Shown here: positions 726 to 51,074 of the stretch, one piece after another
Position numbering within the stretch: the stretch's first letter is position 1
How the letters are laid out: every line of letters begins with the position of its first letter
Assembly (NCBI GenBank): GCA_028281325.1
Contig: JANQKC010000024.1
Location: 79,474-143,473 of the forward strand
DNA length: 64,000 nt
Direction of reading: 5' to 3'
Source of the DNA: Alphaproteobacteria bacterium
GTDB taxonomy: Bacteria > Pseudomonadota > Alphaproteobacteria > UBA8366
Made by a program: the position numbers and the translations under genes
The notes under the pieces: generated by a model
Seen by the model: the letters and a program-made list of their open reading frames with translations, nothing else
What the model was told of the DNA's origin: nothing
Database searches by the model: none

Positions 726-817
726 CTTTCCGTCCGGGCCGGTTTCCGCGCCTTGGGGTTGTTGGGGGCCGGCCGCATTTATGATACAAAACAGGCGTCT
801 AACCGAAGGGTTTTCGC

Positions 818-1771
818 ATGACTGACCATATGGATGGATTGGATTTCGCCGTCGCTCATGACGAGCCGATCCGATACCGCGATCGAATAAGTACCTATTA
901 TCAGACGCTTGGATACGGCAAGCCGTACCGCTGGGCGCAGTATGCCGACGTGCCGTTCACGCCGTTGCAACGGCCGCTGTCGGACAGCCGGGTCGCGCTG
1001 ATCACGACCGCCGCCCCCTACCAGCCCGACAAGGGCGATCAGGGGCCGGGCGCGCCGTATAACGCCGCCGCGAAGTTCTACCGCGTCTACTCGGACAGCA
1101 CCGACAGCGATCCGGACCTGCGGGTTTCCCATATCGGGATCGACCGCAAGCACACCACGGCCGAGGACATGAACACATGGTTCCCGCTCAAACAGCTTCG
1201 GCGGCTGGCGGCGGAAGGCCGGATCGGCGAGGTCGCGCCGCGCTTCCACGGCGCGCCGACCAACCGCAGCCAGAAGACGACGATCGAGCAGGATTGCGTC
1301 GATATCCTGGCGCGGGTGCGCGAGGACGAGGCCGACGTCGCGGTCATTGTCGCCAATTGACCGGTGTGTCACCAGACCGTGAGTCTGGTCGCACGGCATC
1401 TCGAAGCGAACGGCATCCCGACAATCGTCATGGGATGCGCCAAGGATATTGTCGAACACGCGGGCGTGCCGCGCTTCCTGTTCAGCGATTTTCCGCTCGG
1501 CAACGCCGCGGGGCGGCCGAACGACGTGGAGTCGCAGGCCTTCACGATGGAACTCGCCCTGACGGTGCTGGAAACCGCGCCGGGGCCGCGGACCACGGTG
1601 CAGTCGCCGCTGCGCTGGAGCGACAGTCCCGATTGGAAGCTGGATTTCAGCAACATCAGCCAGCTTTCCGACGAAGAGATCGCGCAGCGCAAGCGCGATT
1701 TCGACAAGGTCAAGGAAGTCGCCAAGGCGCGCCGCGCCGAAGACGGCTTGAAGGTCGACGCCGCCGAATAG
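818..1771 (+). CDS. Selenoprotein B family (glycine/sarcosine/betaine/D-proline reductase component B-like). In-frame TGA at 1358..1360 is read as selenocysteine (U-P-V-C)
   Basis: ORFs 818..1360 and 1364..1771 are in the same frame, separated only by TGA plus one codon. Both halves resemble GrdB/PrdB-family proteins (SRVALITTAAPY; GIPTIVMGCAKDIV). A hairpin follows the TGA immediately. Confidence 0.55.
1365..1395 (+). other. Putative bacterial SECIS hairpin. Stem is ACCAGAC/GTCTGGT (1371..1377 pairs 1383..1389) with loop CGTGA; it extends by a TGTGT/GCACG lower stem containing G-U pairs
   Basis: A perfect 7-bp inverted repeat with a 5-nt G/U-containing apical loop lies 18-22 nt downstream of the in-frame TGA. 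That distance is typical for SelB-binding elements. Confidence 0.4.
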
Positions 1772-1869: not shown

Positions 1870-3078
1870 ATGAGTGCTGCGCTCCCCCTGGCTGGAATTC
1901 GGGTCCTCGATATCGGGCAGCTCATCGCGGGGCCGTTCGGCGCCACGATGCTCGGCGATTTCGGGGCCGAGGTGATCAAGGTGGAGCAGCCGGGCGTCGG
2001 CGACGCGTTGCGCGGCACGCCGGTGGACGGCAAGGCCAACCGCTCAACCAACTGGATGGTCGAAGGCCGCAACAAGAAATCGATCACTCTTAACCTGCGG
2101 GTCGATGCGGGGCAGGCGATCCTGAAGGAACTGGTGCGCGACGCCGACGTGCTGTTCGAGAATTTCACCCCCGGCACGCTGGAACGCTGGAACCTCGGGT
2201 GGGAAGACCTACGCGCCATCAATCCGAAACTGATCATGGTGCGCGTCTCCGGCTACGGGCAGGTCGGGCCGTATTCGAAACGCGCGGGCTATGACCGGAT
2301 CGCGCTCGGCTTCTCGGGCTACATGTATCCGACCGGCTTTCCCGACCGATTTCCGGTTCGGCCCGCTTTCCCGACGGCGGATTACAACACCGGCGCGTTC
2401 GGCGCGATGGCGGCGATGTTCGCGTTGTATCAGCGGGACGCCCAGCCGGACGGCGGCGAGGGGCAGATGATCGATCTGGCGCTGTACGAGCCGACCTTCC
2501 GCATCACCGCGAGCATGATGACCAACCACGCCAGGACCGGCGAGGTGCGCGAGCGCATCGGCAACCGCAACCCCACCTTCTCGCCCGCCGGCACCTTCGA
2601 AACCAAGGACGGCCGCTATGTGCAGATCGCCGCGGGCGGCGACAAGGTCTGGGCGCGCCTCGCCGAGGCGATCGGCCGGCCCGACCTAGTCGAGGACGAA
2701 CGCTACGCCCGCAGCCGCGCCCGGATCGAGCGCGCCGACGAATTGGAACAACTCCTGGCGGATTGGGTTGGGCAGCATGACTATTCGGAGGTCGAGGAGC
2801 GGCTGGTCCCCGCCAACGTGCCCTTCGGCGGGATCTACACGGCGGCGGACATCGCGGCCGATCCGCACTACGAGGCCCGCGACAACGTGATCACCGTGGC
2901 GGACGACGACGAAGGCGAGATCACCATGCCCGGCATCTTCCCGAAACTCGCCGCCACGCCGGGACGGGTGGACCATGCCGGCCCGCCGCTCGGCCAGCAC
3001 AACGCGGAAATCTATGGCGGCCTGCTGAAGAAGAGCGACGCCGAATTGGCCAAGCTGGCCGAGGACGGCGTGATCTGA
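1870..3078 (+). CDS. CoA-transferase family III (CaiB/BaiF-type)
   Basis: Strong family signature (GIRVLDIGQLIAGPFGATMLGDFGAEVIKVE ...). ATG at 1870 is preceded by aaagag. Confidence 0.8.
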   Translation: MSAALPLAGIRVLDIGQLIAGPFGATMLGDFGAEVIKVEQPGVGDALRGTPVDGKANRSTNWMVEGRNKKSITLNLRVDAGQAILKELVRDADVLFENFTPGTLERWNLGWEDLRAINPKLIMVRVSGYGQVGPYSKRAGYDRIALGFSGYMYPTGFPDRFPVRPAFPTADYNTGAFGAMAAMFALYQRDAQPDGGEGQMIDLALYEPTFRITASMMTNHARTGEVRERIGNRNPTFSPAGTFETKDGRYVQIAAGGDKVWARLAEAIGRPDLVEDERYARSRARIERADELEQLLADWVGQHDYSEVEERLVPANVPFGGIYTAADIAADPHYEARDNVITVADDDEGEITMPGIFPKLAATPGRVDHAGPPLGQHNAEIYGGLLKKSDAELAKLAEDGVI

Positions 3079-3098: not shown

Positions 3099-3944
3099 AT
3101 GCCAACGATGAGCGAAGCGTCGGACATGGCCCTGCAGGCCGACCACGTCGAAGCGGAATTGAATTACATCGTGGACGATAGCATCCCGCCGGTCCGCTAT
3201 GTGGATTGGCCGGAAGAGGAACACAAGGCGCATATCCCGGAGTATGAGCCGCGCCGGGTCCGCATCCGTAACGGCCGCACGGCGGGCGAGGATTTCACCT
3301 TGCCGTCGCATGGGTTCCGGCTGGTGGACCATCCGACGAACGTAAAGAGTTTCCTCGACGAGGAGGAGATCAAGCGGGTGTACTACCCGGAGATCGAAGC
3401 GCTGATCCAAGCGGAGAGCGGGGCGCGCCGTGTTTTGGTATTCGACCACACGGTCCGCACGCCCGACACCGGCCAGCATGCGGAAGGGTGGGTGCGCGAC
3501 ACCGTCCGTTACGTTCACAACGACTATACCGAGACGTCAGCCCCGCAACGGGTGCGTGATTTCCTGCCGCCGGACGAAGCGGAAGAAGCATTGCGCCGCC
3601 GGTTCGCGATCATCCAGGTCTGGCGCTCGATCGCGCCGCGCGTGGAGTCCGAGCCGCTGGCCATGTGCGACGGGCGCACGATTCCCGAGGTCGGCTTCAT
3701 CCGCAACCAGCGGCGCTACCGCGACCGCACGGCGGAGACCTATCACATCGCCTACCACCCGGATCACCGCTGGTTCTACTTCCCGCTGATGACGCGGGAC
3801 GAGGCGATCGTGTTCAAGGTGTTCGACACGGACGCAAGCGCGGGCGTGCGCTTCACCGCGCACAGCGCCTTCGACGACCCAACCAGTCCGCCCGACGCCG
3901 CCATCCGGCAGAGCATCGAGATGCGGGCGCTGGCGTTCTTCTAG
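3099..3944 (+). CDS. CmcJ/NvfI-family oxidoreductase (7-alpha-cephem-methoxylase P8-chain-like)
   Basis: Motifs RVYYPE, VFDHTVR, HRWFYFP and ESIEMRALAFF match the CmcJ family as I recall it. An alternative start is at 3108. Confidence 0.55.
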   Translation: MPTMSEASDMALQADHVEAELNYIVDDSIPPVRYVDWPEEEHKAHIPEYEPRRVRIRNGRTAGEDFTLPSHGFRLVDHPTNVKSFLDEEEIKRVYYPEIEALIQAESGARRVLVFDHTVRTPDTGQHAEGWVRDTVRYVHNDYTETSAPQRVRDFLPPDEAEEALRRRFAIIQVWRSIAPRVESEPLAMCDGRTIPEVGFIRNQRRYRDRTAETYHIAYHPDHRWFYFPLMTRDEAIVFKVFDTDASAGVRFTAHSAFDDPTSPPDAAIRQSIEMRALAFF

Positions 3945-3947
3945 GGA

Positions 3948-4559
3948 TTACGCGCCCGAGGCGTTCGCCAGCGCGCGGTCGAGGAAGTCGAGCCGGTCCT
4001 GGCCCCAGAACAACTCGCCCTCGAAGACATAGGTCGGCGCGCCGAACACGCCGAGTTCTTCCACCTCGTCGGTGTTGCGCCGGTATTCCGCCACGACCGG
4101 GTCGCTCTTCTCGATGGCGATCAGCTCCGCGCCGTCCATGCCGTTCTCGTCGGCGATCGCCTTGCGGGTTTCCGGCAGCGCCACATTGCGTTCCTCCCAC
4201 CAGATGGCGCGCAGGATCGCATGCGACAGGCGCAGCGCGTCCAGCCCCAGCTGCTGCGCCGCGATCACCGTGTGGCCCGGCGTCTTGTTGTCCTTGGGCG
4301 GGTAGAAGCGTGGCTTCAGGTTCAGCGGCATGCCGAGATGTTTGCTCCAGCGCGCCAGCTCGACGCGGTGATAATCCTGGCGCGGCTGCGGCCTGGTCAG
4401 GATCGGGATGCCCCCGGTCTTCGGCGCGACCTCCTGGAAGTCATACGGCTTGAGGATGATCCGCGCGTGATGCCGCCGCGCGATCTCGACGATACGCGGC
4501 CCGGCGAAATACGCCCAGGGCGAGGAAAGGGAGTAGTAGCAGTCGACGGTGAGGGGCAT
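3948..4559 (-). CDS. 2-hydroxychromene-2-carboxylate isomerase family (DsbA-like thioredoxin fold)
   Basis: MPLTVDCYYSLSSPWAYF N-terminus and C-terminal GAPTYVFEGELFWGQDRLDFL match the family. The longer ORF to 4667 is probably an upstream extension. Confidence 0.7.
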   Translation of the reverse strand: MPLTVDCYYSLSSPWAYFAGPRIVEIARRHHARIILKPYDFQEVAPKTGGIPILTRPQPRQDYHRVELARWSKHLGMPLNLKPRFYPPKDNKTPGHTVIAAQQLGLDALRLSHAILRAIWWEERNVALPETRKAIADENGMDGAELIAIEKSDPVVAEYRRNTDEVEELGVFGAPTYVFEGELFWGQDRLDFLDRALANASGA

Positions 4560-4848
4560 AGTTGATCCGGAATTGGGTGGCGAGGATTTCATGATGGGGA
4601 AAAAGCGAATGAGAGGACAGTCGAATTTATTTGGCGCGCGCATGCGGGACGCCCCGATTACCTGCATCCCATGGCCACAGTTAGATGGTCTCCGGCACGC
4701 TATAATTTCGGCTGGTTGATGGCATTCGACCCAGTGCTTCCGGTGCGGCCATCGATGGCCAATACTCTGTTTACGTGTAAGGCTTTGGGTTTCAACTGGT
4801 TTTGGGCTTCGCTACGGTCACCATCCAAACTCCGCCGGGATTGGTAAA

Positions 4849-5889
4849 TTGAACGAAGAAATAACCGAAACATCACCGACAAGAACATCCAACGACCCGA
4901 TTTGGCCACCGCTGCCAGTCGGTCGAATAGACTGTTACTCTCGCTTGTGGCAACTAGAACTTTGGCTTCGCGAGCTTGTGTATGTGGAACTAAAGTCTCG
5001 ATACGGGGGTCAATGGACGCAGCAGATCGTTGGAGCCAGTATTTATGCCCAAAAGGCTGACAGAAGACTGACACATATGCCAACGCGAGAGCGGAGGCCG
5101 CTAAGTTACATCTCGTTTGATTCCCTGGTCAGGACAATAAGCAGACGTCGGCACCTATTTGCACCTTACCTCCCTATACGTTCGATCTGGGATGCCAAGC
5201 TAGATGAGGTGCGCCAAATCCGGAACCGTGTGGCCCACTTTCGACAGGGAAACGATGGGGATCTTCAGCGCGTCGATCAGCTATTAACTGATATTGACCC
5301 GGGGATTTGGCGCTTTTGCACCTCATACAATGATCATTTCCCAATTCTTCCTCCGAGTCGGGAGAAAGTTATAAAACAATTTATTGAACTGGATCCCTTC
5401 CCGTGGAGTCAGGTAGGTGACGGAGCATGGTCACGTGTCGGTATGGCCAGCCCCGATATGTTGTTAAGTGCGAATATTGAAGTGATTAGGCGACCGTGGC
5501 TTCGAGCGAAGTATCAAGGGCAAGTCGCCGGAAAATACGGATATCTTTTTGATATTAATATTCATGCAAGACAAAACAGGGTTTTCGAATATAAGAATTT
5601 TCTCAAAAACACTACTCATATTCACGATAGATGCTGCCATATTTTGCTCGATTCGTTCGGTACGACGATACGTGCGACATTGCCCTCCGTTTTGGGTGCT
5701 GCACAGATAACGGACACTGTTAACACGCTTATTGAGATGGGTAGGAGTGCGCTTAGACCGTCTCAAACTTTGCTGGAGATAAATAGGGTCGATTCATTAG
5801 CTAAAGACTGGCCCGAGTATGTCCTAGGTCCGGACCACCCGTTCTCTTTTCTCGGCCCAGATATGCCGTGCAAAATTTTCAGCATCTAA
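4849..5889 (+). CDS. HEPN-domain protein (Swt1-like, R-x4-H motif RNRVAH at 5221..5238) with an uncharacterised C-terminal half
   Basis: 346-aa ORF in the low-GC island with TTG start. It carries the canonical HEPN RNase motif R-N-R-V-A-H-F. The start codon is uncertain. Confidence 0.5.
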   Translation: MNEEITETSPTRTSNDPIWPPLPVGRIDCYSRLWQLELWLRELVYVELKSRYGGQWTQQIVGASIYAQKADRRLTHMPTRERRPLSYISFDSLVRTISRRRHLFAPYLPIRSIWDAKLDEVRQIRNRVAHFRQGNDGDLQRVDQLLTDIDPGIWRFCTSYNDHFPILPPSREKVIKQFIELDPFPWSQVGDGAWSRVGMASPDMLLSANIEVIRRPWLRAKYQGQVAGKYGYLFDINIHARQNRVFEYKNFLKNTTHIHDRCCHILLDSFGTTIRATLPSVLGAAQITDTVNTLIEMGRSALRPSQTLLEINRVDSLAKDWPEYVLGPDHPFSFLGPDMPCKIFSI

Positions 5890-6079
5890 GTGAATGCCGA
5901 TGTAATGATCAGCAGGCCGTTTTGGTGCTATTTCACTATGAAAAAATTGAATGCTGTAGCTGACCGAAAATTACGATGTCTTTGATAGTTGTTAGGACAA
6001 AGAAATTGTCTATTTGCAATAAGTTAAGGGTTGAGATGCAGTGTCATCCTGACTTGTATTGACCCGTAGATTCGACTGC

Positions 6080-6559
6080 TCACCTTAGGCCTGCCGCGTC
6101 CAACTGTCGTAGCAACAACGATGCGAGTGCTAGATGATCCAAGCAAGTGTCCGGATCGTCCGTCATTCCACTCGTATGCCCTCTCGGGTTTCGGATGCCC
6201 AGCATTGCGCCTGCGAACAAGAACTTGAAACCCTCTTGTTCATCCTTTTCAGACCTTGTCATCCCTGGATTTAGTGACACTTTTGGCGAACTTCCTCCGA
6301 GGGCGCTCATCATCAACTTGGTACCGTGGCTCGATGCTCCGGAGATACGCTGTATTTCTTCATCAACAAATTTGAAGGCCTCAAAAGTTGCTTGTGCACA
6401 GTGGCCATTATCAAATAGTCGCCTAACATCGTTCGGAAGGTCTGTATGGAGATTTCGCTCGTCAAAGGAATGTGCACTCGAGGGCCTGTCTACTCCCGCT
6501 TCAGTAAAGCGGTGCGCATTTCTTGCGATTCTTTCGAAGTCTTCGAAGTTACTCGCCAT
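6080..6559 (-). CDS. Hypoth_Ymh/TIGR02391-like HEPN protein (R-x4-H motif RNPRGH at 6176..6193)
   Basis: 159-aa ORF with the AMLGIRNPRGH motif. It overlaps the upstream gene by 11 nt, so they form an operon. Low GC. Confidence 0.5.
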   Translation of the reverse strand: MASNFEDFERIARNAHRFTEAGVDRPSSAHSFDERNLHTDLPNDVRRLFDNGHCAQATFEAFKFVDEEIQRISGASSHGTKLMMSALGGSSPKVSLNPGMTRSEKDEQEGFKFLFAGAMLGIRNPRGHTSGMTDDPDTCLDHLALASLLLRQLDAAGLR

Positions 6560-7226
6560 CGATTAGGTTTTTTCGAATACTTCGGAAGATCCTGTCATAT
6601 GTTTTTTGATCACCATCAGCCGGTAGGTTGACCTCTATACGAACAGTAAGTCCCACTCGGTGTTCTGGTTTCTCGGTTGTGCCAGTCGTATCTTTCTTTG
6701 ACTTCACAGATGCTGTGACCCGTTTCTTAGAGGATCTATCCGCACCCTTTTTCGATACCGGCCTGCGCTGATTGGTCTCTCGTGTTATTGGTACTTCCGC
6801 GTGACCTGAAAGTGCAGCGAGGTAGGTGAAAGTCCCAGCCTGTCTGGTTCCAACAATCTCGCTCGAATGATCTGAAGTGCGGAAGAACTGAGCTAAACTC
6901 GATCGATCCATATTCCACGCGTCGTCACCATGTAATTCAAATAGTTCCTCGTAAGCGGTCCGCACAATTTTCTCGAACTCTTTCTGAAACTCCTCGTCCT
7001 TGTGTTGAATGAAAGCGTTCGCGCATTCATCAACCTTCCTGCCTTCCTCATCAACAATGCCGAGGAATTTCAGCACATTGATGACGTAGCTTTCATTCTT
7101 CGGTGCCACGCCAAGCTTGCGAAGGGTTTCAGCTGTCACCTCTTGGGGAAAACTTCGACGCCGAAGGTGGTCGATCGTCTTTACCAGAGGGCCTGCGGAA
7201 GCTACGTACGGATACTTGTTTGCCAT
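6549..7226 (-). CDS. DUF5343-like protein, upstream partner of the HEPN gene
   Basis: N-terminus MANKYPYVASAGPLVKTI...FPQEVTAETLRKLG resembles DUF5343 from memory. The C-terminal half is a Lys/Ser/Thr-rich low-complexity tail. Confidence 0.45.
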   Translation of the reverse strand: MANKYPYVASAGPLVKTIDHLRRRSFPQEVTAETLRKLGVAPKNESYVINVLKFLGIVDEEGRKVDECANAFIQHKDEEFQKEFEKIVRTAYEELFELHGDDAWNMDRSSLAQFFRTSDHSSEIVGTRQAGTFTYLAALSGHAEVPITRETNQRRPVSKKGADRSSKKRVTASVKSKKDTTGTTEKPEHRVGLTVRIEVNLPADGDQKTYDRIFRSIRKNLIDGE

Positions 7227-7619
7227 TATACGCTTCGCCTCTATCTAGCACCCATGCTTCGTGTGTTTAGGCAGCCGAACATAGGTAGTATTGTAACATT
7301 ATAAGATTTACTCTCTTTTTGATTGCATAACTCAATTTTAGGCAGAGTGACAAATCCAATCTACTATTTTTAATGTGTAATCAAAGCTCTATGGACGATA
7401 CGGAAAATTAGTGTTGACGATCAGCATATTTGAATCGATAGAAATCTAATAATTACAATATGTTAATAGTAATTCTTAGTTGTATATTTGCTTATTTATC
7501 GGTCGACCTAGCAGATTTTGAAATCGCATTCTCCGAGATTCTCTGCACTATTTGCAGCGACACCGAATCACTAGAACGCTAAATTTCGCACAACAATAGA
7601 CACTTCTGGGTGGGGAAGA

Positions 7620-32920: not shown

Positions 32921-32994
32921 TCTGGATGGGAGGACTCGAACCTCCAACAGCTGAGTTAAAAGCTCAGAACTCTAACCAATTGAGCTACATCATG
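32921..32994 (-). tRNA. tRNA-Lys(UUU)-like sequence with a defective acceptor stem (possible pseudo-tRNA)
   Basis: T arm GGAGG-TTCGAGT-CCTCC, anticodon arm CTGAG-CTTTTAA-CTCAG and D arm GCTC...GAGT are all present. Acceptor pairs 2-71 and 3-70 mismatch. The 5' end overlaps the CCA of the adjacent tRNA-Met. Confidence 0.4.
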
Positions 32995-33067
32995 GAGCCG
33001 ATGACGGGAGTCGAACCCGCGGCCTGCGGATTATGATCCGCCGCTCTACCATCTGAGCTACATCGGC
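32993..33067 (-). tRNA. tRNA-Met(CAT), elongator-like
   Basis: Reads GCCGATG-TA-GCTC-AGATGGTA-GAGC ... GCGGG-TTCGACT-CCCGT-CATCGGC-T-CCA, with a perfect acceptor stem. By my reading the anticodon loop is 6 nt (TCATAA) rather than 7. Confidence 0.6.
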
Positions 33068-39502: not shown

Positions 39503-39784
39503 GCAGAGTTCCTTCGGTCGAAAATTAGCGGTTGCAAATGGCAATTCGGAATCACCGCCCTAGTTTTTTTGTCCAGGGGAGGACTATTATGGTCCGGACG
39601 ACTTTCCGATTGCACTGTCTATAAGCATTGGTTCGGTCAATTGCACGGGCGAACCGCTCCGGGCGCAAGGCCATGCGCGCGCATTCCTACAGTTGAGGCG
39701 CGCTGGTTTTGTATTGGCCGCCTCTGCTGCTATAGAGATTCCAATTGAAGCATGAAGCACAACCGACGAGGGAGAGTACCAACG

Positions 39785-40642
39785 ATGCTTAAGAGATTCT
39801 TCGCCGCAATGATCCTGATCTTCGGGTTCGGGTCCGCCGTCGCGGCCGAAACATTCGTCTTTACCGCGATCCCCGATCAGGACGAAACGCGCTTGAAAGA
39901 GCGTTTCGGAAAGATCGCGGACTATCTGTCCAAGGAATTGGATACGACGGTCAAATACGTGCCGGTGAAAAGCTATGCGGCGGCGGTGACGGCCTTCAAG
40001 AACAACCAGGTGCAGCTCGCCTGGTTCGGCGGCCTGTCCGGCGTGCGCGCGCGGGCGTCGGTGCCGGGCTCGGTGGCGATCGCGCAAGGCTATGAAGACC
40101 AGTTCTTCGAAACCTATTTCATCGCGAACGAAAAGGCGGGGCTCTCCCTGACCAAGGAGTTTCCGAAGGAAATTGCCGGCAAGACCTTCACCTTCGGGTC
40201 GAAGGGGTCCACGTCCGGCCGTTTGATGCCCGAGTTCCATATCCGCCGAAACTTCGGCAAGACGCCCGACAAGGTGTTTGAGCGCGTCGGTTTCAGCGGC
40301 GATCACTCGCGCACGATCGCGTTGGTGCAGTCCGGCGCCTATCAGGTCGGCGCGGTGAATTACAAGGTTTGGAAAAAGGAATTGGATGCCGGCAAGATCG
40401 ATCCCAAAAAGGTTTCGATCATCTGGCGGACGCCGCCTTATCCCGACTATCAGTGGAGCATTCGCGGCGACGTGGATCAGAAATTCGGCGCGGGCTTTCA
40501 GAAGAAGGTGACGGACGCCTTATTGAATATGAAGGACCCGGCGCTGCTCGAGTCCTTTCCGCGCAGCAAGTTCATTCCGGCGACCAACGACGACTACAAG
40601 ATGATCGTGGATACCGGAAAGGAAATCGGTCTGATCGACTGA
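39785..40642 (+). CDS. ABC transporter substrate-binding protein, PhnD/SsuA-like (putative selenium oxyanion-binding)
   Basis: Signal peptide and PhnD-like fold; GAGGGAGAG SD. It heads an operon that ends in the selD fusion. Confidence 0.7.
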   Translation: MLKRFFAAMILIFGFGSAVAAETFVFTAIPDQDETRLKERFGKIADYLSKELDTTVKYVPVKSYAAAVTAFKNNQVQLAWFGGLSGVRARASVPGSVAIAQGYEDQFFETYFIANEKAGLSLTKEFPKEIAGKTFTFGSKGSTSGRLMPEFHIRRNFGKTPDKVFERVGFSGDHSRTIALVQSGAYQVGAVNYKVWKKELDAGKIDPKKVSIIWRTPPYPDYQWSIRGDVDQKFGAGFQKKVTDALLNMKDPALLESFPRSKFIPATNDDYKMIVDTGKEIGLID

Positions 40643-41298
40643 TGGCGCTTGTCGACCTCACCCTCGCGTCCGCGGGCTATAACGGCGCGAACGTCCTGCA
40701 CGACGTGTCGTTGTCGATCGAACGGGGCGAGAAGGTCGCACTGGTCGGGCGGAGCGGGGCTGGCAAGTCCACCCTGCTTCGGCTGATCTACGAGCGTATC
40801 GACGGCGAGGCCGCGATGGTTCCGCAGGAACTCGGCCTCGTCCGTGCGCTCACCGTGTTTCACAACATCTATATGGGGCAGCTCAACTGCCACAGCACCT
40901 GGCGCAACGTGATGAACCTCGTGCGCCCGATGCAGCAGGAAGTCGAAAACATTGGCGGCATCGTGAAGACGCTTGGCCTGGAGAACGAGATGTTCTCCGC
41001 TGTCGGCGCGTTGTCCGGCGGACAGCAGCAACGGACGGCCGTGGGCCGGGCCCTGTATCAGCGGGCAGACATTCTGCTCGGCGACGAGCCCGTCTCGGCG
41101 GTGGACGAGCATCAATCCCGGTCAATTCTGGAAAGCATCGCCGACGCGAAACCCACGGTCATTCTGGCGATGCATGACATCGATCTCGCGCTCGCCTATT
41201 CCAACCGCGTCATCGGGTTGGATGCCGGGCGCATCGTGATGGACGAGTCGACCGCCGGCATGAAGGCGTCCGACCTCGACCTTCTCTATCGAGGCTGA
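40642..41298 (+). CDS. ABC transporter ATP-binding protein (PhnC-like)
   Basis: Walker A GRSGAGKST and LSGGQQQR signature. Its start overlaps the SBP stop by 1 nt (TGATG). Confidence 0.8.
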   Translation: MALVDLTLASAGYNGANVLHDVSLSIERGEKVALVGRSGAGKSTLLRLIYERIDGEAAMVPQELGLVRALTVFHNIYMGQLNCHSTWRNVMNLVRPMQQEVENIGGIVKTLGLENEMFSAVGALSGGQQQRTAVGRALYQRADILLGDEPVSAVDEHQSRSILESIADAKPTVILAMHDIDLALAYSNRVIGLDAGRIVMDESTAGMKASDLDLLYRG

Positions 41299-41303
41299 GC
41301 GGC

Positions 41304-42800
41304 ATGCAGGCGGTTTGGCGTTACTCTCCGGCGGTTCGGACCAGCCTGATATTCGTCGGTATCGCCTTTCTCTGCCTGATCTTCGCCGACATTTCGATTT
41401 CGACGGTGAACCCGTGGACCGAGATGGGTCGTTTGCTGCTGGGAGTCGTGACCCCGGACTTCCTGGCCACGGAAAGTCTGGTCAACGCCCTGGTGCAGAC
41501 CGTCGCTTTCGCCATCCTGGGCGTCGTCGTTGGAAATATCGCCGGGTTTTTCCTGGCGCTGATTTTTCATTATCGCGCGGTGCGCGTCGGCTGCGCCTTC
41601 GTGCGCGCGATCCATGAGCTGTTCTGGGCGCTGATCTTTTTGCAGATTTTCGGCCTGTCGCCGATCACCGGCATCCTCGCCATCGGGATTCCCTATGCGG
41701 GGATCATCGCGAAGGTCTATGCCGAGATTTTGGAGGAAGCCGACACCACGCCGCTGAAGGCGGTGCCGCCGGGCAGCACGGCGACCTCCGTCTTTATCTT
41801 CGTGCGGTTGCCGGACGTCTGGGCGCATTTCAAGACTTACTCGCTCTACCGGCTGGAATGCGGCTTGCGGTCGAGCGCGGTGCTCGGGTTCGTCGGCCTG
41901 CCGACGTTGGGCTACTACCTCGAAACGGCGTTCCGCCAAGGCCATTATTCCGAAGTCTCCGCGCTGCTGATCCTGTTCTATATTGTGATCGCGAGCATGC
42001 GGGTGTGGATGCGCCGCAACCTGCTGCCGCTCTATATCCTGGGCGCAATCCTGCTGTTGCCGTGGGGCGGACACGAAATCTACGCGGACAACATCGTCCG
42101 GTTCTTCACCCAGGACATCGTCCCGCAGCCGTTGCGCGACGGCGTGTTCGAGCCGGGCGCGCTGTCCGGGTTCGGCGACTGGCTGTCGGTATTGTTCGTC
42201 GAACAGGCGTTGCCCGGTGCGGTCGACACGCTGCAACTGACGATGATCGCGCTGGTCGCGACCGGCGTCCTGGCGCTGGTCTTTTTTCCGCTGCTGTCGC
42301 CGCTGTTCTTCGGCCGCGGCGGCCGTCTCGGCGGGCATGTGTTTTTGGTGGTCGTGCGATCGACGCCGGAATACATCCTGGCCTATGTCTGCCTGCAGCT
42401 TTGGGGGCCGTCGATGTTGCCCGCGATCATCGCGTTGTCGCTGCACAACGGCGCGATCATCGCGCATCTGATTGGCCGCTACACCGAACATATGAAGGTG
42501 CGGGTCGATGCGCCGCGTGGGCTCAATCTTTACTTTTACGAATCGGTGCCGCGTGTCTATGGGCAGCTCCTGGCGTTCCTTTTCTATCGCTGGGAAGTGA
42601 TTTTACGTGAGACCGCAATTCTCGGCATGTTGGGCATCGCGACGCTCGGCTTCTATGTGGACAGCGCCTTTGCGGATATCCGGCTGGACCGCGCGCTGGT
42701 GCTGATCCTGTTCACGGCGGCGCTGAATATCTGCGTCGATGCGTTGTCGCGGCATATCCGGGCGCGGCTCCGTCTCAAGACGACCATCGAACATGGGTGA
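41304..42800 (+). CDS. ABC transporter permease, duplicated PhnE-like (two permease domains in one 498-aa chain)
   Basis: Two consecutive six-helix PhnE-like halves. Confidence 0.75.
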   Translation: MQAVWRYSPAVRTSLIFVGIAFLCLIFADISISTVNPWTEMGRLLLGVVTPDFLATESLVNALVQTVAFAILGVVVGNIAGFFLALIFHYRAVRVGCAFVRAIHELFWALIFLQIFGLSPITGILAIGIPYAGIIAKVYAEILEEADTTPLKAVPPGSTATSVFIFVRLPDVWAHFKTYSLYRLECGLRSSAVLGFVGLPTLGYYLETAFRQGHYSEVSALLILFYIVIASMRVWMRRNLLPLYILGAILLLPWGGHEIYADNIVRFFTQDIVPQPLRDGVFEPGALSGFGDWLSVLFVEQALPGAVDTLQLTMIALVATGVLALVFFPLLSPLFFGRGGRLGGHVFLVVVRSTPEYILAYVCLQLWGPSMLPAIIALSLHNGAIIAHLIGRYTEHMKVRVDAPRGLNLYFYESVPRVYGQLLAFLFYRWEVILRETAILGMLGIATLGFYVDSAFADIRLDRALVLILFTAALNICVDALSRHIRARLRLKTTIEHG

Positions 42801-45070
42801 TCCTCGTGCAATCGACCACACCGATCCTTAAAGACCTCGTTCTCGTCGGCGGCGGACACAGCCATGTCGGCGTGCTGCGGTCCTTCGGCATGAAGCCGAT
42901 CCCGGGCGTCCGCCTGACGGTCCTCTGCCGCGACGTGGACACGCCCTATTCGGGGATGTTGCCAGGGTTGGTCGCGGGGCATTACACCTTCGAGGAGACC
43001 CATATCGATCTCGGCCCGTTGGCCCGCTTCGCCAAGGCGCGCTTCTACAACGACGATGTGATCGGCATCGACCCGCGTCAGCGGTTGGTGATCTGCAAGG
43101 ACCGCCCGCCGGTCTCCTACGACATGCTGTCGATCAACGTCGGGTCCGCGCCCGCGACCTGGGAGACGCCGGGCGCCGACGGCAACGTAGTGCCGGTCAA
43201 GCCGATCAACCGGTTCGTCGCGCATTGGGAACGCCTGCGCGAACGCATCCTGTTGCGCGAGGACCCGGTGCGGATCGGTATCGTCGGCGGCGGCGCGGGC
43301 GGCGTCGAACTGCTGCTCGCCATCCAGTACCGGTTGAAGAGTCTATTGGCCGGGCAAGGGCGCACCGACGCGCATTTGGAGTATCACCTGATCAGCGAAG
43401 AGTCGGACATCCTGACCACGCATAACCCGCTGGTCCGGTCCAAGTTCCGGCGCATCTTCGCCGAGCGCAGCATCAACTTCCACGCGGATACGCAGGTCGA
43501 GTCCGTGACGCCGGGTAAGGTCCAGGCCGCGAACGGCGACACCATTGCGTTGGACGAAATCCTGTGGGTGACCCGGGCGGGCGCCGCGCCGTGGATCAAG
43601 GAATCCGGACTGGCGGTTGACGAATACGGTTTTATGCAGGTCGGCGACACGCTGCAATCGACCTCGCATCCGGAAATCTTCGGCGCGGGCGATATCGCGG
43701 CGATGGTCAATCATCCGCGCCCGAAAGCGGGCGTCTTCGCGGTGAGGCAAGGGCCGCCACTGACCCGAAACCTGCGGCGTATGCTGGTCGGCAAGTCCGC
43801 GCGGCCGTTCACGCCGCAGCGGGAATGGCTTAGCCTGATCAGTACCGGCGATAAATACGCGGTTGCCTCGCGATCCAAATGGTCGGTCGAGGGCAAGCTG
43901 GTCTGGCGCTGGAAGGACTGGATCGACCAGCGCTTCATGAAGAAGTTCAACGAATTGCCCGAAATGGAGACGGAGGAAAAATCGGACGTGCCGCGCGGCC
44001 TGGCGGGCGACGAGGTGATCAAGGAAATCTCCGCCGTCGCCATGCGCTGCGGCGGCTGTGGCGCGAAGGTGGGTGCCACGGTGTTGCAGCGCGCGCTGTC
44101 GCAGCTAAAGCCGGTGGCGCGCGACGACGTGTTGATCGGCCTGCACGAACCGGACGACGCCGCGGTGGTCGAGGTGCCGCCCGGCAAGGTGATGGTGCAT
44201 TCGGTCGATTCGTTCCGCGCCATCGTCGACGACCCGTATCTGTTCGGCCGCATCGCCGCCAACCACAGCCTCGGCGATATCTATGCGATGGGCGCGGACC
44301 CGCAGACCGCGCTCGCCATCGCCACCGTGCCCTACGGACTGGAGGAGAAGGTGGAGGACGTGTTGTCCCAGATGCTGACCGGCGCGATGGAGGTCTTGCA
44401 GGAATCGAACACCTCGTTGGTCGGCGGTCATACCAGCGAAGGCGCGGAGCTGTCGCTGGGCTTTTCCGTGAACGGCCTGATCGACCGAGAGAAGGTCTTG
44501 CGCAAGGGCGGCATGCAGTCGGGCGACCGGCTGGTGCTGACCAAGGCGATCGGAACCGGCACGCTGTTCGCTGCCGACATGCGGCTGAAGGCGAAAGGCC
44601 AGTGGATCAAGGGGGCGCTCGCCTCGATGCTGCTGTCGAACTACGAGGGCGCGCACTGCCTGTCCGACCACGGCGCAAATGCATGCACCGACGTGACCGG
44701 CTTCGGGTTGTTGGGGCATCTGGTCGAGATGACCAAACCGTCCGGCGTCGACGTGGAACTCGATCTCGGCGCGATCCCGTATCTGGACGGCGCGCGGGAG
44801 ACGGTGGCGGCCGGCATCACCAGCACCTTGCAACCGCAGAACCTGCGGCTCCGCCGCGCCATTTCCAATATCGCAGAGGTCGGCGACGACCCGCGTTTTC
44901 CGTTGATCTTCGATCCGCAGACTGCCGGCGGCTTGCTGGCCAGCGTGCCGCAGGACCGGGCCGAGGATTGCGTCGGCGCGTTGCGCGATCTGGGATATGA
45001 CCGGACGGCGATCATCGGCACCGTGTTGCCCGAGGGCAACCGGTTGGAACCGATTACGGTGCGGGCGTAG
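42797..45070 (+). CDS. selD: Fusion of a pyridine-nucleotide-disulfide oxidoreductase ('N-terminal to SelD' domain) with selenide,water dikinase SelD (Cys-type); the senC equivalent
   Basis: N-terminal LVLVGGGHSHVGVL FAD/NAD fold. The C-terminal half from about 43980 is canonical SelD (AMRCGGCGAK at 44042..44068, with TGC/TGT and no TGA). It overlaps the permease stop by 4 nt (ATGA). Confidence 0.8.
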   Translation: MILVQSTTPILKDLVLVGGGHSHVGVLRSFGMKPIPGVRLTVLCRDVDTPYSGMLPGLVAGHYTFEETHIDLGPLARFAKARFYNDDVIGIDPRQRLVICKDRPPVSYDMLSINVGSAPATWETPGADGNVVPVKPINRFVAHWERLRERILLREDPVRIGIVGGGAGGVELLLAIQYRLKSLLAGQGRTDAHLEYHLISEESDILTTHNPLVRSKFRRIFAERSINFHADTQVESVTPGKVQAANGDTIALDEILWVTRAGAAPWIKESGLAVDEYGFMQVGDTLQSTSHPEIFGAGDIAAMVNHPRPKAGVFAVRQGPPLTRNLRRMLVGKSARPFTPQREWLSLISTGDKYAVASRSKWSVEGKLVWRWKDWIDQRFMKKFNELPEMETEEKSDVPRGLAGDEVIKEISAVAMRCGGCGAKVGATVLQRALSQLKPVARDDVLIGLHEPDDAAVVEVPPGKVMVHSVDSFRAIVDDPYLFGRIAANHSLGDIYAMGADPQTALAIATVPYGLEEKVEDVLSQMLTGAMEVLQESNTSLVGGHTSEGAELSLGFSVNGLIDREKVLRKGGMQSGDRLVLTKAIGTGTLFAADMRLKAKGQWIKGALASMLLSNYEGAHCLSDHGANACTDVTGFGLLGHLVEMTKPSGVDVELDLGAIPYLDGARETVAAGITSTLQPQNLRLRRAISNIAEVGDDPRFPLIFDPQTAGGLLASVPQDRAEDCVGALRDLGYDRTAIIGTVLPEGNRLEPITVRA

Positions 45071-45100
45071 GAACCTCGTTCCGTTATTGCCGTTTGTATT

Positions 45101-45212
45101 GACCTCACCCTGAGCGTGTCGAAGGGCCTTCGGAGCGTGGCATGCTTCGACAGGCTCAGCATGAGGGTGGTGCATGCCTAGCTAAGTTATTACCGCGAAA
45201 GCGGGAATCCAG
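45101..45212. repeat. Mosaic palindromic intergenic repeat (REP/RIME-like), copy 2, with B' inverted module, B module (catgcttcgacaggctcagcatgaggg at 45141..45167) and A-type hairpin (ccgcgaaagcggg)
   Basis: Shares modules with 10309..10492. It lies between convergent selD-fusion and senB-like genes. Confidence 0.6.
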
Positions 45213-45218
45213 TATTCG

Positions 45219-46184
45219 CTACCCAAGAATGTGCAACAAATCCCGCCACGCCGCTTCTTCCCGCTCCGGCTTGAACAGGTCGGCGCGCGCGCGGCATTGG
45301 CGCGTTAGCGTCTTCAGGAAATTCCGATCGTGTTCGACCCTGTCCAGGCAGGCCGCCAGGGCGGCGGTGTCGCCGACCGGGAAAAATCCGGCATAGTCGT
45401 CGCCCAGCAGCCCGACCGATCCTGAAATGTCCGATGCGATGACCGGGACGTCCGCGGCGACCGCTTCGGACAGCACGTTCGCGCCGCCCTCCATGATCGA
45501 ACTCAACACCATCGCGTGGGACGAATCGAAAAGCCGGCGTACCTGCCATCCTTGCGCTTCGCCGCGCCAGTCGTATCGGAGATTGGCGGCCATCTCCTGC
45601 CGCGCGCGCTCGGCCCAGTTCCCGTCATGCGCCTTGCCCAGATGCACGATCCGGACCCGCGAATCGCTCGGCAGCAACCGCGCGGCCTCGGCGGCACGCA
45701 ACGGATCCTTCTCGTCGCGTAGATGACCGATCACACAAATATCGACGGTGCGCCGCGACGGGCGGCGGGTCCGGTTGAGCGGCAAGGCCGATTGGTGGAT
45801 GACATGAAGCTTTTCGTGGAACCGATCCGGTATCTCCCGGTGCACGAGGCCGTGCAGGCACACCAGCGCGTCGGCGAGTTCCATGGAGCGATGGGTCTCG
45901 TCCGGATGGCTGCGTTGAAACTTGTAGATGTCGGTTCCCGCCAGCAGGACGATCAGCGGGCGATCGGGGTACCGCTCGTGGAAACGGATGATCGATCCGG
46001 CGCTGCGCCAGGCATGGACGGCGATCATCGCGTCGACCGATTCGTTCTCGTACTCGGTCGCGACGATCACCTCATGACCGAGACGGCGCAGGATATCCTG
46101 CCACCGCACCGCCGTCCTTCTGTTGCCGTCGCGCGACTGTTTGCCTGCGGGCGTGACAAGGCTAATCTTCAAGCCGGTCCGCAT
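45219..46184 (-). CDS. senB: Small glycosyltransferase of the selD-associated family (selenosugar synthase SenB-like)
   Basis: About 320-aa GT-B-like protein (MRTGLKISLVTPAG...). Genomic context is SelD on one side and an EgtB-like gene on the other. The start is uncertain, with a TTG at 46172 possible. Confidence 0.55.
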   Translation of the reverse strand: MRTGLKISLVTPAGKQSRDGNRRTAVRWQDILRRLGHEVIVATEYENESVDAMIAVHAWRSAGSIIRFHERYPDRPLIVLLAGTDIYKFQRSHPDETHRSMELADALVCLHGLVHREIPDRFHEKLHVIHQSALPLNRTRRPSRRTVDICVIGHLRDEKDPLRAAEAARLLPSDSRVRIVHLGKAHDGNWAERARQEMAANLRYDWRGEAQGWQVRRLFDSSHAMVLSSIMEGGANVLSEAVAADVPVIASDISGSVGLLGDDYAGFFPVGDTAALAACLDRVEHDRNFLKTLTRQCRARADLFKPEREEAAWRDLLHILG

Positions 46185-46198
46185 TAGGTGGTTTGCCC

Positions 46199-50898: not shown

Positions 50899-51074
50899 GG
50901 CGGCGCGCGTCTCCGTTGGCTCGATCGGCCCGGCGTCATTTGCAGGCAGGACGCCGAAGGCGGTAAGTGTAGATCGAGAAAGTGTCGACCCGCTGCTCGC
51001 GGGATCGCCCCGCATAATATCCGTAGCCCGGCAGCTTTGTCACATCGGCCGCGATTCCAAAGGACTAGGAGCCC

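What the first reader, a model, noticed from the sequence alone, without database searches (positions are those of the whole stretch)
818..1771. In-frame TGA joins two selenoprotein-B (GrdB/PrdB)-like half-ORFs: candidate selenocysteine gene
ORFs 818..1360 and 1364..1771 share a reading frame and are separated only by TGA (1358..1360) plus one Pro codon. Both halves resemble the selenoprotein B family, whose characterised members carry Sec. The junction reads V-A-N-U-P-V-C, a U-x-x-C redox-type spacing. Standard gene finders would split or truncate this gene. It lies in an organism that also encodes SelD 41 kb downstream.
Basis: partly seen in the sequence, partly recalled or inferred. Interest (0 to 1): 0.75.

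Follow-up and report, generated by a model that had tools for sequence, protein, structure and literature searches.

The report
Selenocysteine gene of the PrdB-like family
The in-frame TGA at 1358 is very probably a real selenocysteine codon in a 317-residue PrdB-like redox protein, a selenoprotein family catalogued since 2005, so the call is correct but the thing is ordinary for specialists.

Summary
ORF 818..1360 ends in TGA, and the same frame runs on to TAG at 1771, giving 317 codons with the motif V-A-N-U-P-V-C-H-Q.

- **Cys in close homologues.** The TGA column is an invariant Cys in all 120 best full-length homologues.
- **TGA in true prdB.** It is an in-frame TGA in annotated prdB genes of Peptoclostridium and Terrisporobacter.
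- **Recurrence.** At least 119 other species carry TGA at this position with both flanks open.
- **Selection.** Both halves are under purifying selection (dN/dS 0.03-0.21).
- **Hairpin.** Eleven nucleotides after the UGA lies a 17-nt stem-loop with loop CGUGA. Its synonymous sites are frozen in TGA forms but free in Cys forms. The 6-bp stem is fully paired in 89/120 TGA forms against 4/120 Cys forms. This fits a bacterial SECIS element.
- **TGA as a stop.** TGA ends 19 of 49 other genes, so the recoding is site-specific.

Caveats:
- The SelD 41 kb away sits beside SenB and SenA in a selenoneine cluster, so it is weak evidence for Sec decoding.
- selA, selB and tRNA-Sec are not in the window and could not be searched genome-wide.
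- The protein is not a true D-proline reductase: it scores below the family cut-off and has no PrdA partner. Its commonest neighbour is a family III CoA-transferase.

Verdict: a new member of a known kind; low to moderate interest.

The parts
818..1771 (+). Complete coding sequence of a 317-residue PrdB-like selenoprotein. Residue 181 is Sec, in the motif N-U-P-V-C-H-Q.
   Evidence: Searches give the frame. Searches give the family hits. Searches show full-length homologues of 308-329 aa covering residues 1-317. One search gives dN/dS of 0.03-0.21 on both halves.
805..810 (+). Putative ribosome-binding site GAAGGG, 7 nt before ATG 818.
   Evidence: Read directly from the sequence. Not tested.
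1358..1360 (+). In-frame TGA read as selenocysteine (U181).
   Evidence: The column is Cys in 120/120 homologues. It is TGA in annotated prdB genes. It is TGA in at least 119 other species.
1367..1369 (+). Codon for Cys184, the proposed resolving Cys of the U-x-x-C centre.
   Evidence: Invariant in all 120 Cys-form homologues, in the TGA forms and in true PrdB.
1365..1395 (+). SECIS-like hairpin inside the coding sequence. Lower stem 1365-1369/1391-1395; 1x1 internal loop; upper stem 1371-1377/1383-1389; apical loop CGUGA at 1378-1382. The conserved core 1372-1388 is 17 nt and starts 11 nt after the UGA.
   Evidence: Searches give the fold. Searches show 87% of cells paired, with pair 15-31 covarying (C-G 68, U-A 27); the 6-bp stem is fully paired in 89/120 TGA forms against 4/120 Cys forms, and the loop is CGUGA in 101/120; synonymous entropy is 0-0.56 bits at codons +5..+9 in TGA forms only.
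1870..3078 (+). Family III CoA-transferase, the commonest gene neighbour of this protein family and probably in the same operon. The start could be 1810 or 1870.
   Evidence: PF02515, E=1.7e-122; found on the same strand in all 36 TGA-form loci that have it, starting within about 760 nt of the TGA in 32 of them, and present in 24 Cys-form loci; 19 of 63 called downstream neighbours.
42797..45070 (+). Selenophosphate synthetase SelD fused to an N-terminal pyridine-nucleotide-disulfide oxidoreductase. It is the only Sec-pathway enzyme visible in the window, but it belongs to a selenoneine (sen) cluster.
   Evidence: One search gives the Pfam domains. TIGR03169 scores 498 bits (cut-off 310) and TIGR00476 selD 301 bits (cut-off 125). 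SenB is at 45219-46184 (-) and SenA at 46193-47512 (+), both above their cut-offs.

Best explanation
Window 818-1771 is one gene for a 317-residue PrdB/GrdB-superfamily protein. Its active-site residue 181 is selenocysteine, encoded by UGA 1358-1360.

Recoding (inferred). A hairpin inside the coding sequence begins 11 nt after the UGA and has a 6-7 bp upper stem and the apical loop CGUGA. It acts as a bacterial SECIS element. It would recruit SelB.GTP.Sec-tRNA(Sec) to the ribosome, so that Sec is inserted instead of the chain being terminated.

Chemistry (inferred). In an AlphaFold model of a Cys homologue (P0001), the corresponding Cys sits between a beta-strand and the N-terminus of a helix, with Cys184 one turn later. 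By analogy with PrdB, the selenol is the nucleophile and Cys184 resolves the adduct as a selenenyl-sulfide, which an external reductant then reduces.

Pathway (weak inference). The protein has no PrdA-type pyruvoyl partner nearby, and its commonest neighbour is a family III CoA-transferase. It is therefore probably not a D-proline reductase. It more likely serves an uncharacterised pathway linked to carboxylates or acyl-CoA.

What is shown: the frame, the homology, the Sec/Cys column, the recurrence of the TGA, purifying selection, and the structure-specific synonymous constraint.

What is inferred: SelB-dependent insertion, the catalytic roles of U181 and C184, and any link to CoA metabolism.
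For: - Frame and motif.
- PrdB model TIGR04483 matches residues 47-255 at E=7e-30.
- All 120 best homologues (66-77% identity, full length) have Cys at the TGA column inside an invariant C-P-[VI]-C-H motif.
- Annotated prdB genes of P. acidaminophilum and T. petrolearius, the latter next to prdA, carry an in-frame TGA at exactly this column.
In nearly all, about 180 codons or more are open upstream; the exceptions are loci cut by an end and two with 119 codons. In all that were not cut off, about 126-136 codons are open downstream.
- The closest relatives are 95-98% identical in protein but only 89-90% in DNA. dN/dS is 0.03-0.16 upstream of the TGA and 0.06-0.21 downstream.
- Hairpin pairing: the 6-bp upper stem is fully paired in 89/120 TGA forms against 4/120 Cys forms, the loop is CGUGA in 101/120, and pair 15-31 shows C-G to U-A compensation.
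- Hairpin codons: the codons forming the hairpin are nearly fixed in TGA forms (ACC 105, GTG 106, AGT 102, CTG 106 of 120). In Cys forms the same codons vary, and in the TGA forms the flanking codons vary.
- TGA is an ordinary stop for 19 of 49 window genes.
- SelD is present.
- In the structural model of homologue P0001 (pTM 0.80), the Cys at the Sec position lies at the strand-to-helix junction.
- PrdB with a UxxC motif is a catalogued selenoprotein family.
Against: - No selA, selB or tRNA-Sec lies in the 64-kb window or in the 8-kb pieces around the 119 related genes. The rest of the genome could not be searched.
- The only SelD seen has another explanation, because it sits in a selenoneine cluster.
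- By folding energy alone the hairpin is unremarkable. For 63 nt the z-score is -0.54, with 55 of 200 shuffles folding at least as well. For 101 nt it is -2.2.
- No Rfam family matches the region, even at E<=10.
- The amino-acid sequence alone imposes part of the pairing: 72% of cells pair in Cys forms.
- TGA forms are each other's nearest neighbours in 104 of 105 cases, so the 119 genes represent few independent origins.
- There is no experimental evidence of selenium incorporation.
Confidence: 0.9

Rival explanations
1. Pseudogene: a TGC-to-TGA nonsense mutation inactivated a Cys-type gene, and the downstream frame has simply not decayed yet.
For: Every close full-length homologue in the protein database has Cys here. 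No Sec-insertion genes other than SelD are visible.
Against: The same TGA occurs in at least 119 species across Alpha- and Gammaproteobacteria, Rokubacteria, Chloroflexi and others, with intact flanks. The segment downstream of the TGA has dN/dS of 0.06-0.21 at dS of 0.2-0.6. A hairpin specific to the TGA forms is conserved at synonymous sites.
Confidence: 0.02
2. Split gene: translation stops at the TGA and restarts at GTG 1364, giving two polypeptides of 180 and 135 aa that assemble.
For: GTG lies one codon after the TGA. Gene callers produce two ORFs.
Against: The codon at that position is not a start codon in 31 of 120 TGA forms (GTC 14, GTT 14, GTA 2, ATC 1). No ribosome-binding site is apparent in the coding sequence just upstream of it, read directly. 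The split would delete the residue that is Cys or Sec in every homologue and in true PrdB. It would also not explain the hairpin conserved only in TGA forms.
Confidence: 0.03
3. Sec-independent readthrough: the UGA is decoded by a near-cognate tRNA (Trp or Cys), with the hairpin merely slowing termination. This would apply in a genome that makes selenophosphate only for selenoneine.
For: The SelD belongs to the sen cluster. selA, selB and selC were not seen.
Against: The spacing and size of the hairpin, and a small apical loop containing G, match what is described for bacterial SECIS elements (plus my own recollection of E. coli fdhF). Homologous PrdB proteins are characterised selenoproteins. 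A Cys codon would be a simpler solution, and other lineages use one.
Confidence: 0.05

Closest known systems
PrdB, the selenoprotein subunit of D-proline reductase of Clostridia (NCBIfam TIGR04483)
   Same: Homologous over residues 47-255 (E=7e-30) and about 31% identical. The Sec codon falls in the same alignment column, with the same U-x-x-C-H motif. Both use an in-frame TGA.
   Different: It scores 104 bits against an equivalog cut-off of 300. It is 317 aa rather than about 240, with extra N- and C-terminal segments. No prdA, prdC or other prd gene was found among the 50 window proteins scanned or among the called neighbours of related genes. The hosts are GC-rich Proteobacteria rather than Stickland-fermenting Firmicutes.
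'Proline reductase PrdB' UxxC selenoproteins counted in the Sargasso Sea and GOS metagenomes (Zhang et al. 2005, 2008)
   Same: The same family label and UxxC motif, with an in-frame TGA, Cys homologues and a predicted SECIS directly downstream. They are abundant in environmental samples, as here, where at least 119 species were found.
   Different: I could not compare sequences from those papers directly. That they are the same orthologous group is inferred from the family name, the motif and the habitat.
GrdB/GrdF/GrdH, protein B of the glycine, sarcosine and betaine reductases (Pfam PF07355, NCBIfam TIGR01917/TIGR01918)
   Same: Distant homology (E=1e-8 to 1e-11). Pfam GRDB is just above its threshold. 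Sec lies in a UxxC context.
   Different: It is below the TIGR01918 subfamily cut-off, 33.9 against 65.45 bits. Only the C-terminal roughly 200 residues of the ~430-residue GrdB models are matched. The UxxCxxC motif described for GrdB is not present; the sequence here is U-P-V-C-H-Q-T. No grdA, grdC, grdD or grdE gene is nearby.
Bacterial SECIS element, with E. coli fdhF as the archetype
   Same: It lies inside the coding sequence directly after the UGA and has a small apical loop containing G. There is an 11-nt spacer and then a 17-nt stem-loop, which is the geometry I recall for the minimal fdhF SECIS (Liu et al. 1998; my own knowledge, not verified here).
   Different: The sequence differs: the loop is CGUGA and there is no bulged U. 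No Rfam model matches it. Binding to SelB has not been tested.

Membership tests
Bacterial selenoprotein gene (UGA recoded as Sec) | An in-frame UGA aligned with Cys or Sec in homologues | tested here: met
   Cys in 120/120 homologues. TGA in annotated prdB genes. TGA in at least 119 further species.
Bacterial selenoprotein gene (UGA recoded as Sec) | A SECIS stem-loop immediately downstream of the UGA, with a small apical loop containing G | tested here: met
   The hairpin at 1365-1395 has the loop CGUGA. Conservation specific to TGA forms and covariation support it. This is in-silico evidence only. Energy alone is not significant and no Rfam family matches.
Bacterial selenoprotein gene (UGA recoded as Sec) | The genome encodes selD | tested here: met
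   TIGR00476 scores 301 bits against a cut-off of 125, at 42797-45070. However, this SelD sits in a sen (selenoneine) cluster.
Bacterial selenoprotein gene (UGA recoded as Sec) | The genome encodes selA, selB and tRNA-Sec (selC) | not testable with these tools
   None lies in the 64-kb window or in the fetched neighbourhoods.
Bacterial selenoprotein gene (UGA recoded as Sec) | Selenium demonstrated in the polypeptide | not testable with these tools
   This needs 75Se labelling or mass spectrometry.
PrdB, D-proline reductase subunit (TIGR04483 equivalog) | Score at or above the curated equivalog cut-off of 300 bits | tested here: not met
   104.2 bits.
PrdB, D-proline reductase subunit (TIGR04483 equivalog) | Encoded with prdA, the pyruvoyl proprotein, in a prd operon | tested here: not met
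   No PrdA or Gly_reductase-type hit among 50 window proteins or among 149 called neighbours of related TGA-form genes. In contrast, prdA lies next to prdB in Terrisporobacter.
PrdB, D-proline reductase subunit (TIGR04483 equivalog) | A Sec (or Cys) in a U-x-x-C motif at the homologous position | tested here: met
   Alignment A3.
Glycine/betaine/sarcosine/D-proline reductase selenoprotein B subfamily (TIGR01918) and Pfam GRDB PF07355 | Score above the curated cut-off | tested here: inconclusive
   TIGR01918 scores 33.9 against 65.45 bits, so it is not met. PF07355 scores 22.9 against 22 bits, so it is barely met and only over residues 38-177. Sources give close homologues these family names.
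GrdB (glycine reductase protein B) | A protein of about 430 aa with a UxxCxxC motif, encoded with grdA, grdE, grdC and grdD | tested here: not met
   The protein is 317 aa, the motif is U-P-V-C-H-Q-T with no second Cys, and no grd genes lie in the window.
   SenA NF041186 scores 486 bits (cut-off 420). SenB TIGR04348 scores 414 bits (cut-off 300). SelD is adjacent.

The most novel reading that the evidence does not exclude
The stand-alone, 310-330-residue PrdB-like proteins of aerobic Proteobacteria and other phyla occur in Sec and Cys forms. They may form a distinct enzyme family that works without any pyruvoyl partner (PrdA or GrdE) and, together with the frequently adjacent family III CoA-transferase, carries out an undescribed selenol- or thiol-dependent reductive step on a CoA-activated or carboxylate substrate. 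In this genome a single SelD, fused to an oxidoreductase, would then supply both selenoneine and selenoprotein synthesis.
Probability: 0.4. Interest if true: 0.5.

Novelty: new member of a known kind. Interest (0 to 1): 0.25.

Why it matters
For annotation: the gene should be called as one 317-codon CDS with Sec at codon 181, not as two fragments, which is how at least one automatic gene caller split it.

For biology: the window shows an organism that appears to use selenium in two ways, through a selenoprotein and through a selenoneine cluster. It also adds one instance to a very widespread PrdB-like family whose substrate is unknown, even though the family has been counted among the commonest environmental selenoproteins for twenty years.

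The contrast between the Sec and Cys forms gives a clean in-silico definition of this family's SECIS (CCAGAC-CGUGA-GUCUGG, 11 nt after the UGA). That definition could be used to annotate the family automatically.

None of this changes current understanding of selenium biology.

Tried and rejected
1. **Solved structures.** A PDB sequence search with the fused protein found no hit at E<=1. Foldseek of the AlphaFold model of homologue P0001 against the PDB found nothing at E<=1e-3. There is therefore no solved structure to anchor the mechanism.
2. **Rfam.** Only two tRNAs passed at gathering threshold over the whole window. Nothing matched 1300-1460 at E<=10.
3. **tRNA-Sec.** ARAGORN found none in the window or in the fetched loci L001-L239.
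4. **SelA and SelB.** tblastn with E. coli SelA and SelB against the window and all loci gave no hits. Distant alphaproteobacterial versions in the window would also have been seen by the Pfam scans.
5. **Walking out of the window.** Exact-protein look-up found only 3.6-6.6 kb Logan contigs from the runs SRR20820732, SRR20820734 and SRR20820735, or nothing. The rest of the genome stayed out of reach.
6. **Other selenoprotein genes in the window.** The in-frame-TGA scan returned 13 candidates, and by inspection only 1358 is credible.
7. **Neighbourhood ORF picking.** The first attempt, by ORF length alone, picked antisense shadow ORFs in GC-rich loci. It was redone with a GC3 filter.
8. **Literature on SECIS spacing.** A search for the 11-nt spacing returned an irrelevant paper. 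That point rests on my own recollection.
9. **Genome-wide UGA reassignment.** Rejected, because TGA terminates 19 of 49 genes.

Full report
**1. The observation**

ATG 818 opens a frame that meets TGA at 1358-1360. CCG and then GTG (1364) follow, and the same frame runs to TAG at 1769-1771. The 317-codon reading gives ...EADVAVIVAN-U-PVCHQTVSLVAR....

Both parts have the high third-position GC content of real genes in this 63% GC window, 0.82 and 0.83. A scan of all six frames for TGAs flanked by high-GC3 coding sequence returned 13 candidates. By inspection, only the one at 1358 looks like a selenoprotein gene; the rest read as antisense frames or gene boundaries.

TGA is an ordinary stop for 19 of the 49 other genes I listed. 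The organism therefore has not reassigned UGA, and any readthrough must be specific to this site.

**2. What the protein is**

| Model | Result |
|---|---|
| NCBIfam PrdB, TIGR04483 | E=7e-30, 104 bits, residues 47-255; equivalog cut-off 300 |
| GrdF, GrdH, GrdB | E=1e-8 to 1e-11 |
| TIGR01918 subfamily | 33.9 bits; cut-off 65.45 |
| Pfam GRDB, PF07355 | 22.9 bits; cut-off 22 |

A search of the large protein collection returned thousands of homologues. The best 120 are full-length proteins of 308-329 aa with 66-77% identity. Several are named by their sources as 'glycine/betaine/sarcosine/D-proline family reductase selenoprotein B' or 'PrdB'.

**3.

- In all 120 of those homologues the residue aligned with the TGA is Cys. 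It lies in an essentially invariant N-C-P-[VI]-C-H-Q motif.
- A tblastn search of plasmid records found prdB genes annotated by RefSeq. One is in Peptoclostridium acidaminophilum. Another, in Terrisporobacter petrolearius, lies next to prdA.
- Both prdB genes contain an in-frame TGA. In the alignment that TGA falls in exactly the same column as the window's TGA: TAG-U-GT-C-HRS against VAN-U-PV-C-HQT.
- The literature lists D-proline reductase PrdB as a characterised UxxC selenoprotein. 'Proline reductase PrdB, UxxC' was also one of the most abundant selenoprotein families in the Sargasso Sea (42 genes) and GOS (235 genes) surveys.

**4. Recurrence and selection**

The hosts are mostly Alphaproteobacteria, with Gammaproteobacteria, Rokubacteria, Methylomirabilota, Chloroflexi and Thermomicrobiales as well.

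In nearly all loci the frame is open for about 180 codons or more before the TGA. The exceptions are loci cut by an end and two with 119 codons. Unless the locus ends first, the frame is also open for about 126-136 codons after it.

The four closest relatives (L020, L035, L012, L104) are 95-98% identical in protein but only 89-90% in DNA. Nei-Gojobori dN/dS against six relatives is 0.03-0.16 for the part before the TGA and 0.06-0.21 for the part after it, at dS of 0.2-0.7.

The segment downstream of the TGA is therefore translated in this frame and is under purifying selection. This excludes a recent pseudogene.

**5. The recoding signal**

Directly after the TGA the RNA can fold as follows:

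| Element | Window coordinates |
|---|---|
| Lower stem | 1365-1369 with 1391-1395 |
| Internal loop | 1x1 |
| Upper stem | 1371-1377 with 1383-1389 |
| Apical loop CGUGA | 1378-1382 |

By energy alone this is not remarkable in so GC-rich a sequence. The z-score is -0.54 for 63 nt and -2.2 for 101 nt. The case rests on comparison between gene forms.

As a control I fetched 120 Cys-form genes from metagenomes using the same pattern with TGY in place of TGA.

| Measure | TGA forms (n=120) | Cys forms (n=120) |
|---|---|---|
| Codon +6 | ACC 105 | ACC 44, ACG 34, AGC 23 |
| Codon +7 | GTG 106 | varied |
| Codon +8 | AGT 102 | AGC 60, AGT 11 |
| Codon +9 | CTG 106 | CTG 67, CTC 30, CTT 10 |
| Upper 6-bp stem fully paired | 89 | 4 |
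| Apical loop CGUGA | 101 | 9 |
| Synonymous entropy, codons +5..+9 | 0-0.56 bits | 0.6-1.7 bits |

- **Local constraint.** Within the TGA forms, flanking codons have 0.85-2.2 bits of synonymous entropy. The constraint is therefore local and cannot be explained by relatedness alone.
- **Constraint on the protein.** Codon +7 is Val in 100% of TGA forms but in only 31% of Cys forms. The RNA structure constrains the protein sequence.
- **Covariation.** Pair 15-31 is C-G in 68 distinct sequences and U-A in 27.
- **Remaining TGA forms.** The 31 without a full 6-bp stem keep the CCAG/CUGG part of the same stem with an internal mismatch, keep 5 of the 6 pairs, or carry a variant (CCAG-UCGGUCAGU-UUGG) seen in loci labelled Gammaproteobacteria or Pseudomonadales.

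The conserved core is a 17-nt stem-loop that begins 11 nt after the UGA and has G as the second base of its loop. [quoted passage not shown] It also agrees with what I recall of the minimal E. coli fdhF SECIS, which is my own knowledge and was not verified here. No Rfam model matches the region.

**6. The Sec machinery, and a correction about SelD**

However, it is a 757-residue fusion of a pyridine-nucleotide-disulfide oxidoreductase (TIGR03169, 498 bits) with SelD (TIGR00476, 301 bits).

It is followed by SenB (45219-46184, minus strand; TIGR04348, 414 bits against a cut-off of 300) and SenA (46193-47512; NF041186, 486 bits against 420). This is the three-gene selenoneine cluster of Kayrouz et al..

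A PhnD/PhnC/PhnE-like ABC transporter runs directly into the SelD gene. That paper notes a putative selenate transporter near many sen clusters, but I did not test whether this transporter is of that kind.

So SelD shows that the cell makes selenophosphate, but it does not by itself show that the cell decodes Sec.

- No tRNA-Sec, selA or selB lies in the window.
- None lies in the 8-kb pieces around the related genes.
- I could not reach the rest of the genome. Only short Logan contigs from the runs SRR20820732, SRR20820734 and SRR20820735 carry this organism's proteins.

This is the main untested link. The lineage-wide retention of the TGA, the hairpin and the downstream frame argues that the machinery is present.

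**7. How the protein probably works, and what it is not**

I made an AlphaFold model of the closest Cys homologue (P0001, 77% identical; pTM 0.80). It places the Cys at the Sec position at the junction between strand 174-178 and helix 182-197. This is the usual setting of a redox CxxC or UxxC centre.

By analogy with PrdB I infer that the selenol of U181 is the nucleophile. C184 would then resolve the adduct as a selenenyl-sulfide.

The protein is not a true PrdB:
- It scores a third of the equivalog cut-off.
- It has N- and C-terminal extensions.
- No prdA or other prd or grd gene lies in the window.
- No such gene lies among 149 called neighbours of the related genes.

The only common neighbour is a family III CoA-transferase. 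In the window it lies at 1870-3078. It is on the same strand in all 36 TGA-form loci that have it, starts within about 760 nt of the TGA in 32 of them, and is present in 24 Cys-form loci. It accounts for 19 of 63 called downstream neighbours. Enoyl-CoA hydratases and DUF6134 proteins follow in frequency.

A role in a pathway linked to carboxylates or acyl-CoA is therefore a reasonable guess, but a weak one. No solved structure exists for the fold.

**8. Rival explanations**

- **Pseudogene.** Excluded by sections 4 and 5.
- **Split gene restarting at GTG 1364.** This fits poorly. That codon is not a start codon in 31 of 120 TGA forms. A split would also remove the universally conserved Cys/Sec residue.
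- **Sec-independent near-cognate readthrough.** This cannot be formally excluded without the sel genes. It would not explain a hairpin of SECIS geometry that is conserved only in the TGA forms.

**9. Verdict**

This is a correctly spotted, previously unannotated instance of a selenoprotein family that has been catalogued since 2005. Automatic callers split the gene.

The novelty class is 'new member of a known kind', and interest is about 0.25. The residual interest lies in two things: the unknown substrate of this very widespread stand-alone PrdB-like family, and the coexistence of a selenoprotein gene and a selenoneine cluster in one genome.

Noticed in passing
window 39752-47512: A selenoneine (sen) cluster. 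A PhnD/PhnC/PhnE-like ABC transporter (39752-42800) runs directly into SelD, whose start overlaps the permease stop. SelD is fused to a TIGR03169 pyridine-nucleotide-disulfide oxidoreductase (42797-45070). SenB (45219-46184, minus strand) and SenA (46193-47512) follow. The transporter could be the selenium importer of the cluster.
   Followed up: partly
window ~4600-7550: A low-GC insertion of about 3 kb (GC 0.50-0.53 against 0.63-0.66 around it). It carries a HEPN (Swt1-like) protein (4849-5889), a Hypoth_Ymh protein (6080-6559, minus strand) and a DUF5343 protein (6549-7226, minus strand). The syntenic relative L104 joins window position 4559 to 7576 within about 110 nt, so the segment is absent there. 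It may be a small mobile or defence island.
   Followed up: partly
window 32921-33067 (- strand): Two tRNA genes abut with no spacer. The first has a CAU anticodon (Met or Ile2 type) and ARAGORN could not name it. The second is tRNA-Lys(UUU). Neither is tRNA-Sec.
   Followed up: partly
window 1358-1405 compared with alignments A1 and A2: The RNA hairpin constrains the protein. Codon +7 after the TGA is Val (GTG, in the apical loop) in 100% of TGA forms but in only 31% of Cys forms. Ser at +8 uses the otherwise rare AGT codon in 102 of 120 TGA forms.
   Followed up: yes
window 3099-3944 and 3948-4667: Just beyond the CoA-transferase lie a CmcJ/NvfI-family oxidoreductase (NF041278, 296 bits) and, on the opposite strand, a DsbA-like thioredoxin-fold protein. 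Both neighbours are conserved only in the closest relatives (3 loci and 1 locus), so a functional link to the selenoprotein is unsupported.
   Followed up: partly
locus L245 (Roseomonas haemaphysalidis plasmid p546-2), 4968-7353: A Cys-form homologue (61.5% identity to the window protein) lies tail-to-tail with a gene annotated as protein adenylyltransferase SelO. This is a single case, and SelO is not among the neighbour families listed for the other loci.
   Followed up: no
window 49738-52139: Two divergently oriented genes of the acyl-CoA dehydrogenase family. One matches only the N-terminal and middle domains (49738-51015, minus strand). The other matches only the C-terminal domain (51075-52139, plus strand). 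Both are probably full-length divergent members, but this was not examined.
   Followed up: no
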